From a virus (Duplodnaviria; Caudoviricetes), in the IMG/VR virus record IMGVR_UViG_3300026543_000090, positions 1-37,296 of that record: a stretch of DNA of 37,296 nt. One strand, given 5' to 3'. The notes under the pieces are model-generated. The model did not search any database. It saw nothing but the letters and a program-made list of their open reading frames with translations, and had not been told where the DNA came from. This document shows, piece by piece, positions 5,816 through 33,293 of this stretch (the stretch's first letter is position 1; each line of letters opens with the position of its first letter). Position numbers and translations under genes: made by a program.

Positions 5816-5851
5816 ATACAAAGCATCCCTTACGGTACGCCCGTGAGGCCG

Positions 5852-5876
5852 CCACGGATCCGTACCGTGGTTTTTT
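5852..5876 (+). terminator. Rho-independent terminator
   Basis: CCACGG-atccgta-CCGTGG followed by TTTTTT. Confidence 0.65.
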
Positions 5877-5960
5877 ATTTATAAGACGTTAAATTTTAAT
5901 ATCTAAAGTGATTTAGGGGGGGAATTTGGTTAAAAGTTAATAGAAGACGAATCAGACATT

Positions 5961-6752: not shown

Positions 6753-6991
6753 GATTTTCTATTATTATCTAGTTGTTTAAATATAAATTCTTTCAGTCTA
6801 TCGATTGTAAACTCTATTCTATCTTTTGTAACCTCGTTCTGGATAAGTAAACTAGCAAAAATCTCTTCGGTAGCCAGAAGAGCCTCGAGTGGTTCAAATC
6901 CGTTTACTTGTGCAGATTCGATCATCACATCCCTGCATTCTAGGGCTCTTTTTATAAGTGGTTTTGGGAGCATTCGCATTCTTTCTGACAT
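6680..6991 (-). CDS. Hypothetical protein, tandem paralog 1
   Basis: ECRDVMIESAQVNGFEPLEALLATEEIF segment; AAGGA RBS. Confidence 0.65.
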   Translation of the reverse strand: MSERMRMLPKPLIKRALECRDVMIESAQVNGFEPLEALLATEEIFASLLIQNEVTKDRIEFTIDRLKEFIFKQLDNNRKSCQKNKKKKKQNSLPKKLKKLINQ

Positions 6992-7068
6992 CTAATTTCC
7001 TTCAAGTTAAAAAAAGATATTATAGAAGAATATATCATTTAAATCAATAAATTTGACATAACAGAATC

Positions 7069-14166: not shown

Positions 14167-15566
14167 ATGTCAAGTATTACGACAGTCGCGGTTTTGCCGC
14201 CGGCGGTCAGAGAGTAAAAATTTTAATTATCATATATTGCTCTCTATAAATCTTCTCTAATTGACTTGGAAGCCTAAAGCGAAAGCCATGGTGACAAGGG
14301 GCAAGCACAAGATGAATATCTTGTTGCAGCCTGAACGACTTAACGAGAAGATCTCGAAAGAGGAAGCGAAAGTCTGAACTAGATTGTAAAGATCTAGAGG
14401 AAGATCCGAAGAGATTTTCCCGCTTACATTTATGTAAGTCATTAAAAAGTAACAGATTGATTATGACCGTCTTCTTCTGATGACAGCGTATCCAACTCTT
14501 GTGCATACAAAATTTGCACAAAAACGAGTTTTACCCGAAAAAATGGGCGATACCATAGTTTTCCGAAGATACTCACGGCTTGATACAGTACCTGTACCGT
14601 TAGTTGATGGAATCACTCCACCAGGGAGTCCATTATCTGCGACGGACATAAAAGCAAGGGTCGATTTTTACGGTAATTTTGTGACCGTAACCAACCAAGT
14701 GGAGCTTACCGTTGAAGATCGCGTTTTAAACGAAGCCGCACGTTTGCTAGCACAGAACCTGGCTCAAACACTCGACGAGGTCACTCGAGATGTCTTAGCT
14801 AGTACAAGTTCAGTGTTGCAATGTGCAAACGGGGTAAATGGTAACACACCAACTGAATTAACGAAAGCAGATATTGATATTTCTGTCAGGACCTTATTAG
14901 GGCTTGATGCAGAAATGATTTCTGAAGTCGTAGTTGGTAGAGATGCATTCGGTACAACTCCTGTAAGACCAGCATTTTGGGCTTATATTGATACCGACTT
15001 ACTAGATGACTTAGAGCAAGTAGCAAACTTTGCTCATTCATCACAGTACGCGAACCAGCAGAGCGTTCTAGACTCAGAATGGGGAGCAACGGGTAGAAAA
15101 ATTGCTCGTTTAAAACTAAACCTTATTGACTTGGAAGCCTACGGCGATAGCTATGGTGACAGGGGCGAACCCGAATGGGACGTTGAACGACTAAGTGGTT
15201 TGGCTGCGTAAGCAGAAGCGATAGTCTGAACTAGGTTGTAAAGATCTAGAGGAAGATCCGAAGAGGTTTTCCCGCCTAGAGATAGGTCATGAAAGTAACA
15301 GAATGAATGTAAGATGGCTTTACACTTCAGTAGGAAGTAAAAGCGGTGCATCTCCAAACGTATTTAATAATTTCATAATTGCAAAAGAAGCGTATGCAGT
15401 TGTTCATTTACGATCAGAAACAGGCGAATTCTATGTAGAGCCACTTGGTTCTGCTGGAAGCGCCGACCCCCTCCACCAGAGAGGGAGTGTTGGGTGGCAA
15501 CACCCATTTGTATCTAGAATTTTAAACGACGACTTTATGTTGTCTCTAACTTCAACCCATAGCTAG
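14167..15566 (+). CDS. Major capsid protein (N4-gp56 type), join(14167..14215,14460..15094,15306..15566), 314 aa after splicing
   Basis: GAGGA RBS, then MSSITTVAVLPPAVRE|YYDRLLLMTAYP...GDTIVFRRY...FYGNFVTVT...SEWGATG|NVRWLYTS...DPLHQRGSVGWQ. The exons total 945 nt in one frame. Confidence 0.9.
14216..14459 (+). ncRNA. Group I self-splicing intron 1 (244 nt, no ORF)
   Basis: 5' exon ends in U and the intron ends in G. P1: AGAGAGU(14209-15)/GCUCUCU(14239-45) with U.G at the splice site. P3: CUUCUC/GAGAAG. P7: GACUU/AAGUC. GNRA-capped P8. Excision restores the frame. Confidence 0.9.
15095..15305 (+). ncRNA. Group I self-splicing intron 2 (211 nt, no ORF)
   Basis: P1: AACGGGU(15088-94)/GCUCGUU(15104-10) with U.G. 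P3: CUAAACC/GGUUUGG. P7: GACUA/UAGUC. Ends AGUAACAGAAUG. Excision gives ATG|NVRW (amino acids) in frame. Confidence 0.9.
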
Positions 15567-25587: not shown

Positions 25588-26973
25588 ATGGTTAAACTCA
25601 ATCAAACATATGGATTGGGTTCACCTGTCCAAAATAGTTATCCATTACCTGTTATATCAAATAGAGATCCAACAACAAGAGATACTAATTTTGCTAGAGG
25701 TCAATTATGGGTAAATAAATCTTCTAATACTATTTATTCATTATCAGATGTTGTATCTGCAGCAGCTAATTGGGTATCTTTAGGAAGTGGAACTGGAGTT
25801 GAAACTTTTCCTATTACTCCATTTGTAGTAGGTCTTGGAGGAAATGCAGGTTTTACAACTATTCAATCAGCACTTGATGCTGCTGATTCAGCAGGTGGTG
25901 GAATGGTATATTTACAACCTGGTACTTATACTGAAGATCTTGTTTTCTTTGATAAAACTCAATTAGTGTCTGTTGAATATGTAGATGTTGGAAATACTAT
26001 TGTAATAGGAGTTCATACACCTCCTACTAGTGGAACAGTTGCTATTCGAGGGATAAGAGTTGTAAGTCCATCTAGTGTATTTTTTAGTACAGAAGCAGGT
26101 TCTACTGATATTTCATTCATAGAGTGTACTTTTGGAGTACAAGATGGATGGGTATTTGATCTTGAAAATTGGACAGGAACTTTCAATATTAATGACTGTG
26201 GCTCTCAATCTAGTATTGAAGATGGAGTAATTAATAATACAGGTGGTTCAGATATATTTACAAACAATTGTCAAGTAGGAGCTGGAACAACAAGAGTTTT
26301 TACTTCTAGTGGAGATGTTAGACTTGATCTTACTTTTATGGATTGTCCCATAAGCATTTCATCGGGAGCTATTTTCATAAACTTTGCTCTTTTTGCTAAG
26401 ACTCTGACTATAGAAGGAGATGCAACAGGTTCCATTGTACTAGGAGACTTCTTTCCAGGATCAGATCCAGCTATCGTCATGGATTCTACTGGAGATGTTT
26501 CTATAGCTAATACTTCCATAACTTCTTCTAATGATCCTGCTATTGATGGATCAGGATCAGGAACTCTTACATTAGGGCAACTTACTTTTTTAGATAATGG
26601 AAATATATCAGGATCTTTAACTACTGATTTTGGATCAGAGAGTTTCTTTGGTCCTATGACGATCAATGGAAATATTTTGATGCCTCAACCATCTACTCAG
26701 TTACAAATGGAAGGAGGTGCAGATACTGATTTTATAGGACAAGTAACTTTAACGACTGGAACAGCAACAGTTTCAAATACTAATATTTCTTCTACTGACA
26801 AAATATTTCTTCAAAGAGAAGGAATAGGTGCTTCTACAGATCTTGGAGTATTAGATATCTCTATTACTGATTCAACTAGTTTTACTATTACCTCTCTTCG
26901 GCCTGGAAATCCAGGATCAACAGAAACAGACGATCTTTCTATTATAAATTACTTCATCGTAAGGCAAAATTAA
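25588..26973 (+). CDS. Tail spike/fibre protein with putative beta-helix middle domain
   Basis: N-terminal RDPT.RD...RGQLWVN anchor; FTTIQSALDAA...GGGMVYLQPGTYTEDL beta-helix cap. Confidence 0.75.
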   Translation: MVKLNQTYGLGSPVQNSYPLPVISNRDPTTRDTNFARGQLWVNKSSNTIYSLSDVVSAAANWVSLGSGTGVETFPITPFVVGLGGNAGFTTIQSALDAADSAGGGMVYLQPGTYTEDLVFFDKTQLVSVEYVDVGNTIVIGVHTPPTSGTVAIRGIRVVSPSSVFFSTEAGSTDISFIECTFGVQDGWVFDLENWTGTFNINDCGSQSSIEDGVINNTGGSDIFTNNCQVGAGTTRVFTSSGDVRLDLTFMDCPISISSGAIFINFALFAKTLTIEGDATGSIVLGDFFPGSDPAIVMDSTGDVSIANTSITSSNDPAIDGSGSGTLTLGQLTFLDNGNISGSLTTDFGSESFFGPMTINGNILMPQPSTQLQMEGGADTDFIGQVTLTTGTATVSNTNISSTDKIFLQREGIGASTDLGVLDISITDSTSFTITSLRPGNPGSTETDDLSIINYFIVRQN

Positions 26974-27010
26974 AAATATTTATATATAAAATAAGTATAA
27001 GGAGAAATAA

Positions 27011-27472
27011 ATGGTTAAACTTAACCAAGTATATGGAATAGAAAAACCTCTACAGAATGCTTATCCATTACCAATTCAAACAAATAGACGACCAACAGTA
27101 AATGATAAGAATGCTGCTAAAGGACAGATGTGGATAGATACTTCTACAGGAGCAGTTTATATACTATCTGTTGTTATTGCTGGAGATGCTATATGGACTC
27201 ACATAGGGACTGGTAGTAATGATACTGGAACAGCAACTCTAGATGAAGGGGTAGTATCTGTTGCGGATACAACTATCAATGCTTTTGATCTACTTTTTGT
27301 TACAAGAATAGTAGTAGGAGGTGGAGGAACAACAGCTCTAGGAAATCTTGTAGCTGTAACACAACCGGATACTGGCTTTGCAGTTGATTCTTTTCAAGAT
27401 GCTGCACCACAATCTATAGAAACAGGAGATAACTCTTCTTTTGATTATCATATTATAAGAAAAGTGAATTAA
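27011..27472 (+). CDS. Short paralog of 25588..26973 (N- and C-terminal domains only)
   Basis: Same MVKLNQ.YG...QN.YPLP start and ET.D.S...Y.I.R end; AAGGAG RBS. Confidence 0.75.
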   Translation: MVKLNQVYGIEKPLQNAYPLPIQTNRRPTVNDKNAAKGQMWIDTSTGAVYILSVVIAGDAIWTHIGTGSNDTGTATLDEGVVSVADTTINAFDLLFVTRIVVGGGGTTALGNLVAVTQPDTGFAVDSFQDAAPQSIETGDNSSFDYHIIRKVN

Positions 27473-32223: not shown

Positions 32224-32916
32224 TTAATTTTGTAAAACAACACTAAGATTCTTCTTCACGAAAAAATTAGCTATCGCTGTATATGGAGCAACCAGAAATA
32301 TGATGATGAATTTTATCAACAGAGTAAACATGATGACATGCCATACATTGCCCCATATATCTTCAAAGAAGCTCATCAATCCATAGAACACTAAAGTGTC
32401 TATCGTTTGAGACATGAAAAGAGATATCATAACTCTAGTAGTAAATTTTTTAGATCCAAATCTCTGTTGAAGCCATGAAAAAAATCTAATATCTAATAGC
32501 TGAATAAATATAAATGTGATGAAAGAGACAGCTGTAATGGTAGGCATACATGAAAATATAGCTCCATAGTGCGCTTGAGTTGTATCATATCCATTAGGGA
32601 TAAAGAACATATGTAACTGCTGAAGAGTGACAAAGCCAAAGGTACACAGAGCTGCAATAAGGACATGGATACGAGCGGATCGTCTACCATAATACTCTTG
32701 CATAAGATTAAGGCCTAGAATGTAGCAAACTCCAAGAGCCTTGCAGGTCGTTACATCCAGGCCAAAGATATTTACTTGCTTCAGGATCATTAGATTTAAT
32801 GAAATAGCCACTACAGTAAGCCACGCATTAACAGCTTGCTCGCCTATTTTTAGACAAAGCATTGTGATCCAAGAAATAGCAAATATCTGTATCAATAGAA
32901 GATAAAAATTTAGCAA
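32224..32916 (-). CDS. yhhQ: Queuosine precursor transporter (YhhQ / Vut_1 family)
   Basis: About 7 TM helices; NL..LKQVNIFGLDVT, LNLMQEYYGRRSAR, Q.LDI..F, R...SLF.SQTIDTLVF motifs. Confidence 0.85.
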   Translation of the reverse strand: MLNFYLLLIQIFAISWITMLCLKIGEQAVNAWLTVVAISLNLMILKQVNIFGLDVTTCKALGVCYILGLNLMQEYYGRRSARIHVLIAALCTFGFVTLQQLHMFFIPNGYDTTQAHYGAIFSCMPTITAVSFITFIFIQLLDIRFFSWLQQRFGSKKFTTRVMISLFMSQTIDTLVFYGLMSFFEDIWGNVWHVIMFTLLIKFIIIFLVAPYTAIANFFVKKNLSVVLQN

Positions 32917-33293
32917 AAATCTTCCCAGTCAGTTGCTTCTACATCATCTCCTTCACATACATATATATATCCATCGGTATCTAGATATTTCTCTTGTACC
33001 CTATAGGGATGAGCTGCAAGCATGCATTGATATTTTTTACTCCACCACATATTGTGGCCTTCTTTCCAGGATTTTCTTCTTACTTTTACACTATATTTAG
33101 TTTTTTCAGATGCTTGTATAAAATCCATTATTCCTTCCTCTGTATTTAATAATTTTAAATTTTGAAATTTTCTAATTACGGATCTTCTAATTTGAATGCA
33201 CTCATTCTTAGACAAAATTTCTTTGCATTTTGTAATCGAAGATTGTAAAAAACCATTGTAATAACTGTCAAATAAAAAAGTTTTTACTATCAA
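32910..33293 (-). CDS. Hypothetical protein with DUF2829-like C-terminus
   Basis: KVRRKSW...DDVEATDWE motif; TTG start after GGAG. Confidence 0.55.
   Translation of the reverse strand: MIVKTFLFDSYYNGFLQSSITKCKEILSKNECIQIRRSVIRKFQNLKLLNTEEGIMDFIQASEKTKYSVKVRRKSWKEGHNMWWSKKYQCMLAAHPYRVQEKYLDTDGYIYVCEGDDVEATDWEDFC

What the first reader, a model, noticed from the sequence alone, without database searches (positions are those of the whole stretch)
14167..15566. Major capsid gene interrupted by two compact, ORF-less group I introns
Seen in the sequence: the capsid ORF is in three pieces. Removing 14216-14459 and 15095-15305 gives a continuous 314-aa protein (..AVRE-Y-YDRLL.. and ..EWGATG-NVRW..). 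Both inserts follow group I rules: exon-terminal U paired to G in P1, terminal G, and P3/P7 pairings with compensatory changes between copies (P7 GACUU/AAGUC vs GACUA/UAGUC; P3 CUUCUC/GAGAAG vs CUAAACC/GGUUUGG; P8 CUC-GAAA-GAG vs CUGC-GUAA-GCAG). I see no P2 and no P7.1/P7.2. Unspliced RNA meets a stop (T|AA) at the first splice site. Established knowledge: phage group I introns mostly sit in DNA-metabolism, terminase or lysin genes, and the Azoarcus intron (about 205 nt) is among the smallest. Inference: making the most abundant virion protein needs two ribozyme reactions, which could act as a timing checkpoint.
Basis: partly seen in the sequence, partly recalled or inferred. Interest (0 to 1): 0.88.

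Follow-up and report, generated by a model that had tools for sequence, protein, structure and literature searches.

The report
Site-hopping mini-introns in phage capsid gene
This phage's capsid gene is split by two small gene-less inserts that have the full group I ribozyme fold and likely splice themselves out; they come and go between close strains and have near-copies at other spots in the same gene, so they are likely selfish hoppers rather than a timing switch.

Summary
Observation confirmed. Removing 14216-14459 and 15095-15305 gives a 314-aa capsid protein, 295/314 identical to an intron-less homologue and colinear with 117 of 119 homologues at both junctions. Rfam finds nothing, but a model built from 22 other introns scores them 157 and 162 bits, and 34 of 49 pairs covary. 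They belong to a large phage family: 174 of 246 copies sit in N4-gp56-type capsid genes, at about 59 automatically called sites. The checkpoint idea is not supported: site 1 is filled in 2 of 77 and site 2 in 0 of 79 close relatives, and near-identical strains lack intron 1. Capsid-gene introns are published (LittleE, crAss-like phages), and this scan found similar ones on other DNA. The new point is site-hopping. Intron 2's nearest kin sit at codon 291 and, about 95% identical, at codon 144 of sister strains; one clade of codon-228 introns is rejected (p-AU 0.0025). Its guide fits the other sites too, which suggests reverse splicing. Splicing is untested (no RNA data). The host is possibly a chlamydia.

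The parts
14167..14215 (+). Major capsid gene exon 1 (16 codons + 1 nt); 14209-14215 is the exon strand of P1
14216..14459 (+). Group I intron 1, 244 nt, ORF-less. Guide 14239-14245; P3 14251-14258/14343-14351; P4 14265-14268/14295-14298; P5 14272-14292; P6a 14305-14327; P7 14335-14341/14370-14375; P8 14353-14362; P9 14379-14397; P9.1 14399-14420; P9.2 14422-14439; terminal G 14459
   Evidence: (156.9 bits)
14460..15094 (+). Exon 2 (codons 17-228), N4-gp56-type major capsid protein (PHROG 1357 E 1e-30; Pfam PF25209)
14842..14843 (+). Empty insertion site after codon 144; in sister strains it holds an intron about 95% identical to intron 2
15095..15305 (+). Group I intron 2, 211 nt, ORF-less. 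Guide 15104-15110; P3 15116-15123/15195-15203; P4 15130-15133/15160-15163; P5 15137-15157; P6a 15170-15179; P7 15187-15193/15222-15227; P8 15204-15215; P9 15231-15249; P9.1 15251-15272; P9.2 15274-15287; terminal G 15305
   Evidence: (162 bits)
15306..15566 (+). Exon 3 (codons 229-314 + stop); holds the empty sites after codons 255 and 291 that are filled in relatives

Best explanation
The capsid gene is interrupted by two gene-less inserts with a complete group I ribozyme fold that likely splice themselves out of the late mRNA, and they are likely near-neutral selfish elements of a capsid-gene intron family that likely reaches new sites by guide-directed reverse splicing. Shown: junctions, helices, covariation, patchy occupancy, and near-copies at other sites. 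From established group I chemistry (not tested here): P1 sets the 5' splice site at a U.G pair, guanosine bound in P7 attacks it, and the freed exon then attacks after the terminal G, helped by P10. Inferred: (1) between phages, ORF-less copies ride along when an endonuclease-bearing family member at a nearby codon homes, or are spread by ordinary recombination; (2) between sites, an excised intron inserts where its guide already pairs, after which guide and P10 adapt. Intron 2 likely came from a codon-291-type intron, and it and the codon-144 copy in sister strains likely derive one from the other.
For: Ribozyme: 34 of 49 pairs change on both sides, 94% of cells paired against 39-44% for slid controls, in 22 family members. 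P7 pairs in 174 of 175 parsed cores with three variants, and the G-site triad follows A-C-U 136, G-A-C 27, U-C-A 7, C-A-G 4, other 1. Guides track their own exons at dozens of sites. The splicing-proven BAKA intron matches the model weakly (27.6 bits). Dispensable: 115 of 119 top homologues are uninterrupted. Among the 80 closest exon-2 loci, site 1 is filled in 2 of 77 evaluable, site 2 in 0 of 79, and any family intron is present in 9 of 80. Contigs of runs X1 and X4 join across intron 1 while X2 has it. Homing members exist: 39 of 47 long capsid introns carry an antisense LAGLIDADG motif. Hopping: intron 2's core is 93% and 88% identical to codon-291 introns L555 and L556, but over full length only 61% and 70% to other codon-228 introns. 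It groups with L556 at 100/95, and one clade of codon-228 introns is rejected, p-AU 0.0025. One 414-nt contig (X4) spans exon-intron-exon at codon 144 with 10 differences in about 206 nt; the same junction is in X2, X3 and X6 (four studies), and an X3 contig links it to intron 2 on one molecule. The shared stretch starts at 15100, inside P1, so more than the core was copied. The first four guide bases of intron 2 and L555 are the same and pair with both exon ends. A codon-228 relative (P0031) reads into its intron with the same K-M-S-A as the codon-291 intron, whose bases form a P10 fitted to the codon-291 exon (peptide-level inference).
Against: No RNA evidence of splicing was available. No reverse transcriptase was seen among the 51 window ORFs scanned, and Hausner 2014 (PMC3984707, passages) says reverse-splicing mobility has no direct experimental support. 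Site 144 is common (17 calls) and site 228 is also filled in distant phages, so replacing a resident intron by DNA recombination could mimic hopping. Across the family, same-site pairs are more alike (mean 0.74) than different-site pairs (0.66), and introns sharing a locus are no more alike than random (0.66); the nearest neighbour is at the same site for 33 of 77. So vertical descent and homing also shape the family. Introns 1 and 2 are only 68% identical overall but 87% in one 3' block, which looks like local gene conversion. The exact guide of the codon-144 copy was not displayed. The tree uses 191 columns and has many open forks; L555 and L070 dropped out of it.
Confidence: 0.62

Rival explanations
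1. The introns are real and selfish, but every site is an old homing site. The cross-site likeness comes from DNA-level gene conversion between introns that share one gene, which swaps ribozyme cores and leaves each site's guide in place.
For: The 87% identical 3' block shared by introns 1 and 2 against 63% in the 5' half. Sites 144, 228 and 291 are each filled in distant capsid clades. Genes with 2-4 introns are frequent. No reverse transcriptase is needed.
Against: The codon-144 copy matches intron 2 from 15100, inside the P1/P10 strand. P0031 keeps a codon-291-like P1 loop at codon 228. Conversion cannot create the first occupant of about 59 sites, only 17 of which show a long member.
Confidence: 0.25
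2. New sites arise by off-target cutting by the family's antisense LAGLIDADG or endonuclease-VII-like enzymes, followed by repair from a resident intron, or by collaborative homing with a free-standing nuclease. RNA plays no part.
For: Endonuclease-bearing members are common at codons 83-132 and near 276. Hausner 2014 names relaxed endonuclease specificity and collaborative homing as routes.
Against: No long member was seen at sites 16, 144, 228 or 291. No homing nuclease family was found among 51 window ORFs, including the genes flanking the capsid gene. It does not explain why donor and new sites share guide complementarity.
Confidence: 0.1
3. One reading: the introns are kept as a splicing checkpoint that delays or meters capsid synthesis.
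For: Unspliced RNA cannot make capsid protein. The family is strongly biased to head genes: 174 of 246 in N4-gp56 genes, and 25 of 31 identified other hosts are capsid or portal genes.
Against: Both sites are empty in nearly all close relatives and intron 1 is polymorphic among near-identical strains. Positions are scattered over the gene. No aptamer or other Rfam element lies nearby. LittleE splices its capsid intron efficiently.
Confidence: 0.03

Closest known systems
Mycobacteriophage LittleE capsid-gene intron and the ORF-less 265-nt BAKA/Optimus tail-gene intron (Pope et al. 2013, PMC3706429)
   Same: Group I intron in a virion structural gene, RT-PCR-confirmed there. LittleE's endonuclease is antisense, as in 39 of 47 long members here. 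A near-identical intron segment occurs at two different sites. BAKA shares the P9-P9.1-P9.2 3' layout, lacks P7.1/P7.2 and scores 27.6 bits on the family model.
   Different: BAKA has extra sequence between P1 and P3 and a different P4. LittleE's intron was not detected by the model. One intron per gene there; here two, in a family with dozens of capsid sites.
Multi-intron capsid genes of Delta/Zeta crAss-like phages (Yutin et al. 2021, PMC7886860)
   Same: Capsid gene split by several group I introns.
   Different: Found there through endonuclease domains in large gut phages, with no RNA structure given in the passages read. Here the introns are ORF-less, in a 37-kb phage whose near relatives are in marine sediment and seawater runs.
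Azoarcus pre-tRNA-Ile intron, 205 nt (PMC13168695 for the size; subgroup IC3 and fold recalled)
   Same: Similar size; GNRA-type L9 and a receptor-like P5 (receptor identity recalled, not tested).
   Different: Azoarcus has P2 and a 6-bp P4 and lacks P9.1/P9.2 (recalled). Here there is no P2, P4 has four pairs preceded by an unpaired UGA, and P9.1/P9.2 are present. Family members are called as short as 196-199 nt.
Phage IA2 introns (T4 td/nrdB/nrdD; Twort orf142, three introns in one gene; recalled)
   Same: Phage mRNA introns with a similar 3' end; several related introns in one gene.
   Different: IA2 is defined by P7.1/P7.2 (recalled), which are absent here.
Reverse-splicing spread among fungal rDNA sites (Bhattacharya et al. 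2005, PMC1299323, abstract read)
   Same: Related introns at different sites of one abundant RNA, inferred from phylogeny.
   Different: Nuclear rRNA and older events. Here a phage mRNA, with about 95% identical copies in co-occurring strains.

Membership tests
Group I intron | Exon-terminal U paired to guide G in P1 | tested here: met
   7-bp P1 for both; guides covary with exons across sites
Group I intron | Terminal G; removal restores the host gene | tested here: met
Group I intron | P3/P7 pseudoknot with G-binding site | tested here: met
   P3 99% and P7 100% of cells paired with compensatory changes; G-site triad covariation
Group I intron | P4-P5-P6 domain | tested here: met
   P4 4 bp, P5, P6, P6a supported. 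P4 is short and nearly invariant, partly because the search patterns contained it
Group I intron | Self-splicing with guanosine and Mg2+ | not testable with these tools
   needs in vitro transcription or RNA reads
Rfam RF00028 Intron_gpI | Score of 50 bits or more | tested here: not met
   0 hits at E<=1; relatives and BAKA reach only 27-31 bits; model gaps noted in PMC11878797 and PMC6125680
Subgroup IA (IA2/IA3) | Extra P7.1(/P7.2) between P7 and P3 (recalled definition) | tested here: not met
   P3' follows P7 directly
Subgroup IC3 (Azoarcus-like) | P2 present, 6-bp P4 (recalled) | tested here: not met
   5 nt between guide and P3; 4-bp P4
GISSD subgroups IB/ID/IE | Match to subtype covariance models | not testable with these tools
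   GISSD models are not held here
Mobile (homing) intron | Encoded endonuclease | tested here: not met
   none in either intron; present in family members at other sites
Collaborative homing pair | Free-standing endonuclease beside the host gene | tested here: not met
   no such family among 51 scanned window ORFs; divergent nucleases could be missed
N4-gp56-type major capsid protein | Homology to the family | tested here: met
   PHROG 1357, PF25209, homologues named 'N4-gp56 family major capsid protein'

The most novel reading that the evidence does not exclude
A large, undescribed subgroup of minimal group I ribozymes (no P2, no P7.1/P7.2, four-pair P4) has specialised on phage capsid mRNA and treats it as fungal introns treat rRNA, spreading to dozens of sites by reverse splicing into the most abundant late transcript. 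The codon-144/228/291 trio in co-occurring strains would be a very recent, directly testable case of RNA-mediated group I intron transposition in a phage.
Probability: 0.35. Interest if true: 0.75.

Novelty: new variant of a known kind. Interest (0 to 1): 0.5.

Why it matters
For this genome alone it is an annotation fix: gene callers truncate the capsid protein to 243 aa (P0002). The family matters more. Hundreds of phage introns that Rfam misses (about 460 stored stretches for one pattern) shift the view that phage group I introns prefer DNA-metabolism genes (stated in PMC12350094). They offer ribozymes of about 200 nt with an unusual P4 for structure work. They also give near-identical introns at different sites of one gene, a test bed for the unproven reverse-splicing route to new sites. 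A cultured phage (SRB7757, PV062637) carries a family member (129.7 bits), so splicing can be tested in vivo.

Tried and rejected
Rfam scan of the window: 0 hits. BLASTN against 50,697 GenBank phage records: intron 2 no match; intron 1 12 records, only the two SRB7757/7757 records substantial. The short phiEL hit scored 8 bits and was not followed. No RNA holder listed among sequencing runs, which is no evidence either way. A third intron in the window: the only other model hit (6815-7021, minus strand, 15 bits) overlaps an ORF and is taken as chance; BLAST of the own genome finds only the two. The metagenome pattern scan gave only 3 loci. Pfam named only 3 of 20 long-intron ORFs because the longest open frames picked were mostly shadows of antisense genes; a motif search resolved this. 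The protein atlas gave no result. One clade of site-16 introns is not rejected (p-AU 0.07), nor is grouping introns 1 and 2 clearly rejected (p 0.05). The 'no P2' spacing tally over the family is partly circular because the guide search window was fixed. Assembly artefact rejected: both introns are also seen in independent runs. Literature searches for a description of this family listed none, but subscription journals and supplements were not seen and the GISSD models could not be run.

Full report
Context. The window is a whole 37,296-base virus record with a terminase, a P22-like portal, the capsid gene and tail genes. No cultured phage has a capsid protein above about 33% identity. The host is uncertain. 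An 88% identical capsid gene lies on a 36-kb contig binned in a Chlamydiae MAG, but two other hits are binned with an archaeon and an Ignavibacterium. Eleven of 400 genomes of that phylum have a match, one of them a 68-70% identical fragment inside a 223-kb chromosomal contig. A chlamydial host is therefore possible, not shown.

The observation. Removing 14216-14459 (244 nt) and 15095-15305 (211 nt) yields 314 codons plus stop. The product is 295/314 identical to intron-less P0001, and 117 of 119 homologues align without gaps across each junction; 115 of the 119 are uninterrupted. The sites are after codon 16 (+1 nt) and after codon 228. Rfam returns nothing.

The family. A 14-base motif shared by both introns occurs in about 1000 stored viral stretches, many by chance; a longer pattern occurs in about 460 and a 3' pattern in about 150. 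Only the first 120-124 of each were fetched. Profile searches of 455 loci gave 329 complete hits and 246 unique introns, 174 of them flanked by an N4-gp56-type capsid gene. In the least selective sample the share was 35 of 52. For the 72 others I scanned 54 of 61 usable flanking frames: 22 other capsid families, 3 portal, 2 ribonucleotide reductase, 1 tape measure, 3 unknown families, 23 no hit. The sample is seeded from this window, so the capsid bias may be overstated. Automatic junction calls with a good P1 place 145 introns at 59 sites, 24 with two or more members; some calls are visibly off, so the count is approximate.

Structure. In 22 non-redundant ORF-less members, excluding the window's own, 94% of cells pair and 34 of 49 pairs change on both sides, against about 40% paired for slid controls. 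In 175 parsed cores P7 pairs in 174, and the first P7 pair covaries with the bulged base as expected for a guanosine site (the rule is recalled). A model from those 22 scores the window's introns at 162 and 157 bits, the cultured phage SRB7757 nrdD intron at 130, the splicing-proven BAKA intron at 28, and does not find LittleE's. The fold lacks P2 and P7.1/P7.2, has a four-pair P4 preceded by an unpaired UGA, and carries P9, P9.1 and P9.2. It fits neither IA nor IC3 as I recall them; the subtype models could not be run. PMC11878797 (passages) says current models and subgroups under-cover phage introns.

Not a checkpoint. Using exon 2 as the query, which is blind to both sites, site 1 is filled in 2 of 77 evaluable loci, site 2 in 0 of 79 (one contig ends at the site), and 9 of 80 have a family intron somewhere. 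That ranking disfavours genes with introns inside codons 24-228. Contigs of near-identical strains join across intron 1 in runs X1 and X4, while X2 carries it. All 145 called introns put a stop in the unspliced frame, so the T|AA is not special. Capsid introns are published: LittleE, confirmed by RT-PCR and N-terminal sequencing (PMC3706429, passages), and crAss-like phages (PMC7886860, passages). Earlier notes of this scan reached similar verdicts on other DNA.

How they spread. 39 of 47 long capsid introns carry an antisense LAGLIDADG motif, mostly at codons 83-132, and others carry an endonuclease-VII-like gene near codon 276. None was seen at sites 16, 144, 228 or 291, and no homing nuclease was found among 51 window ORFs. 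Riding along during homing at a neighbouring codon is an inference.

Site-hopping. Intron 2's core is 93% and 88% identical to codon-291 introns, the latter in a capsid gene only 47% identical. Over full length it is 84% identical to the first of these but 61-70% to other codon-228 introns. In a 54-intron tree it pairs with a codon-291 intron (100/95), and one clade of codon-228 introns is rejected (p-AU 0.0025), as is one of codon-291 introns (0.004) (L555 and L070 fell out of the set). In four runs from four studies a copy of intron 2 sits after codon 144. One 414-nt contig spans both junctions with 10 differences, and an X3 contig joins its 3' half (1 difference in 109 nt) through the exon to intron 2 itself. 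The match begins inside the P1 strand. The exon ends at codons 144, 228 and 291 all finish in GGU, the commonest end in the family (51 of 145), and intron 2 shares its first four guide bases with the codon-291 intron. A relative at codon 228 still reads K-M-S-A into its intron like the codon-291 intron, which hints at a direction from 291 to 228. This is the pattern used to infer reverse splicing in fungal rDNA (PMC1299323, abstract), a route with no direct proof (PMC3984707, passages).

Against this: same-site introns are on average more alike than cross-site ones (0.74 vs 0.66), co-resident introns are not (0.66), and the nearest neighbour is at the same site for 33 of 77. Introns 1 and 2 share an 87% 3' block that suggests conversion. 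No reverse transcriptase is known here. Unitigs from metagenomes can mix strains, and the guide of the codon-144 copy was not displayed.

Verdict. Real and well supported as two group I introns (about 0.95 that they splice). Ordinary as a kind, and not regulatory. A new structural variant in a large family that my seven searches did not find described, with unusually fresh evidence of movement between sites. Interest 0.5. Other papers seen: PMC12350094, PMC6125680 and PMC13168695 as passages; no supplements were read.

Noticed in passing
L458:1499-2357 (phage SRB7757, PV062637, unannotated record): A cultured Desulfovibrio phage has a family intron (130 bits) in an nrdD-like gene, with an HNH-like ORF starting in its 3' part and an intein-like stretch upstream in the same gene (gene names read from the translation).
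   Followed up: partly
L067:413-1340 and L078:1574-2500: An unrelated group I lineage with a canonical-looking P4 and a long insert sits after codon 36 of close capsid homologues, the same codon where L398 has an ORF-less family intron.
   Followed up: partly
G172:C4:208656-209414 (L461): An isolated capsid-gene fragment (codons about 37-282, 68-70% identical) lies among non-phage-looking genes on a 223-kb contig of a genome of the Chlamydiae MAG's phylum; it begins next to the codon-36 intron site.
   Followed up: partly
L346, L398, L342, L338, L118, L466, L470: Single capsid genes with three or more family introns or intron pieces.
   Followed up: no
run X6, window 15484/14239 joint: A related strain appears to carry another family intron after codon 291.
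   Followed up: no
window 32224-33293 (minus strand): A Vut_1 transporter gene (E 2e-24) and a weak Tad2-like anti-defence gene (E 4e-5, below cut-off) lie side by side.
   Followed up: no
window 5826-5880: A GC-rich inverted repeat followed by a T run in an AT-rich intergenic stretch, terminator-like.
   Followed up: no
window 25588-27472: Two adjacent putative tail proteins with K1-lyase C-terminal domains.
   Followed up: no
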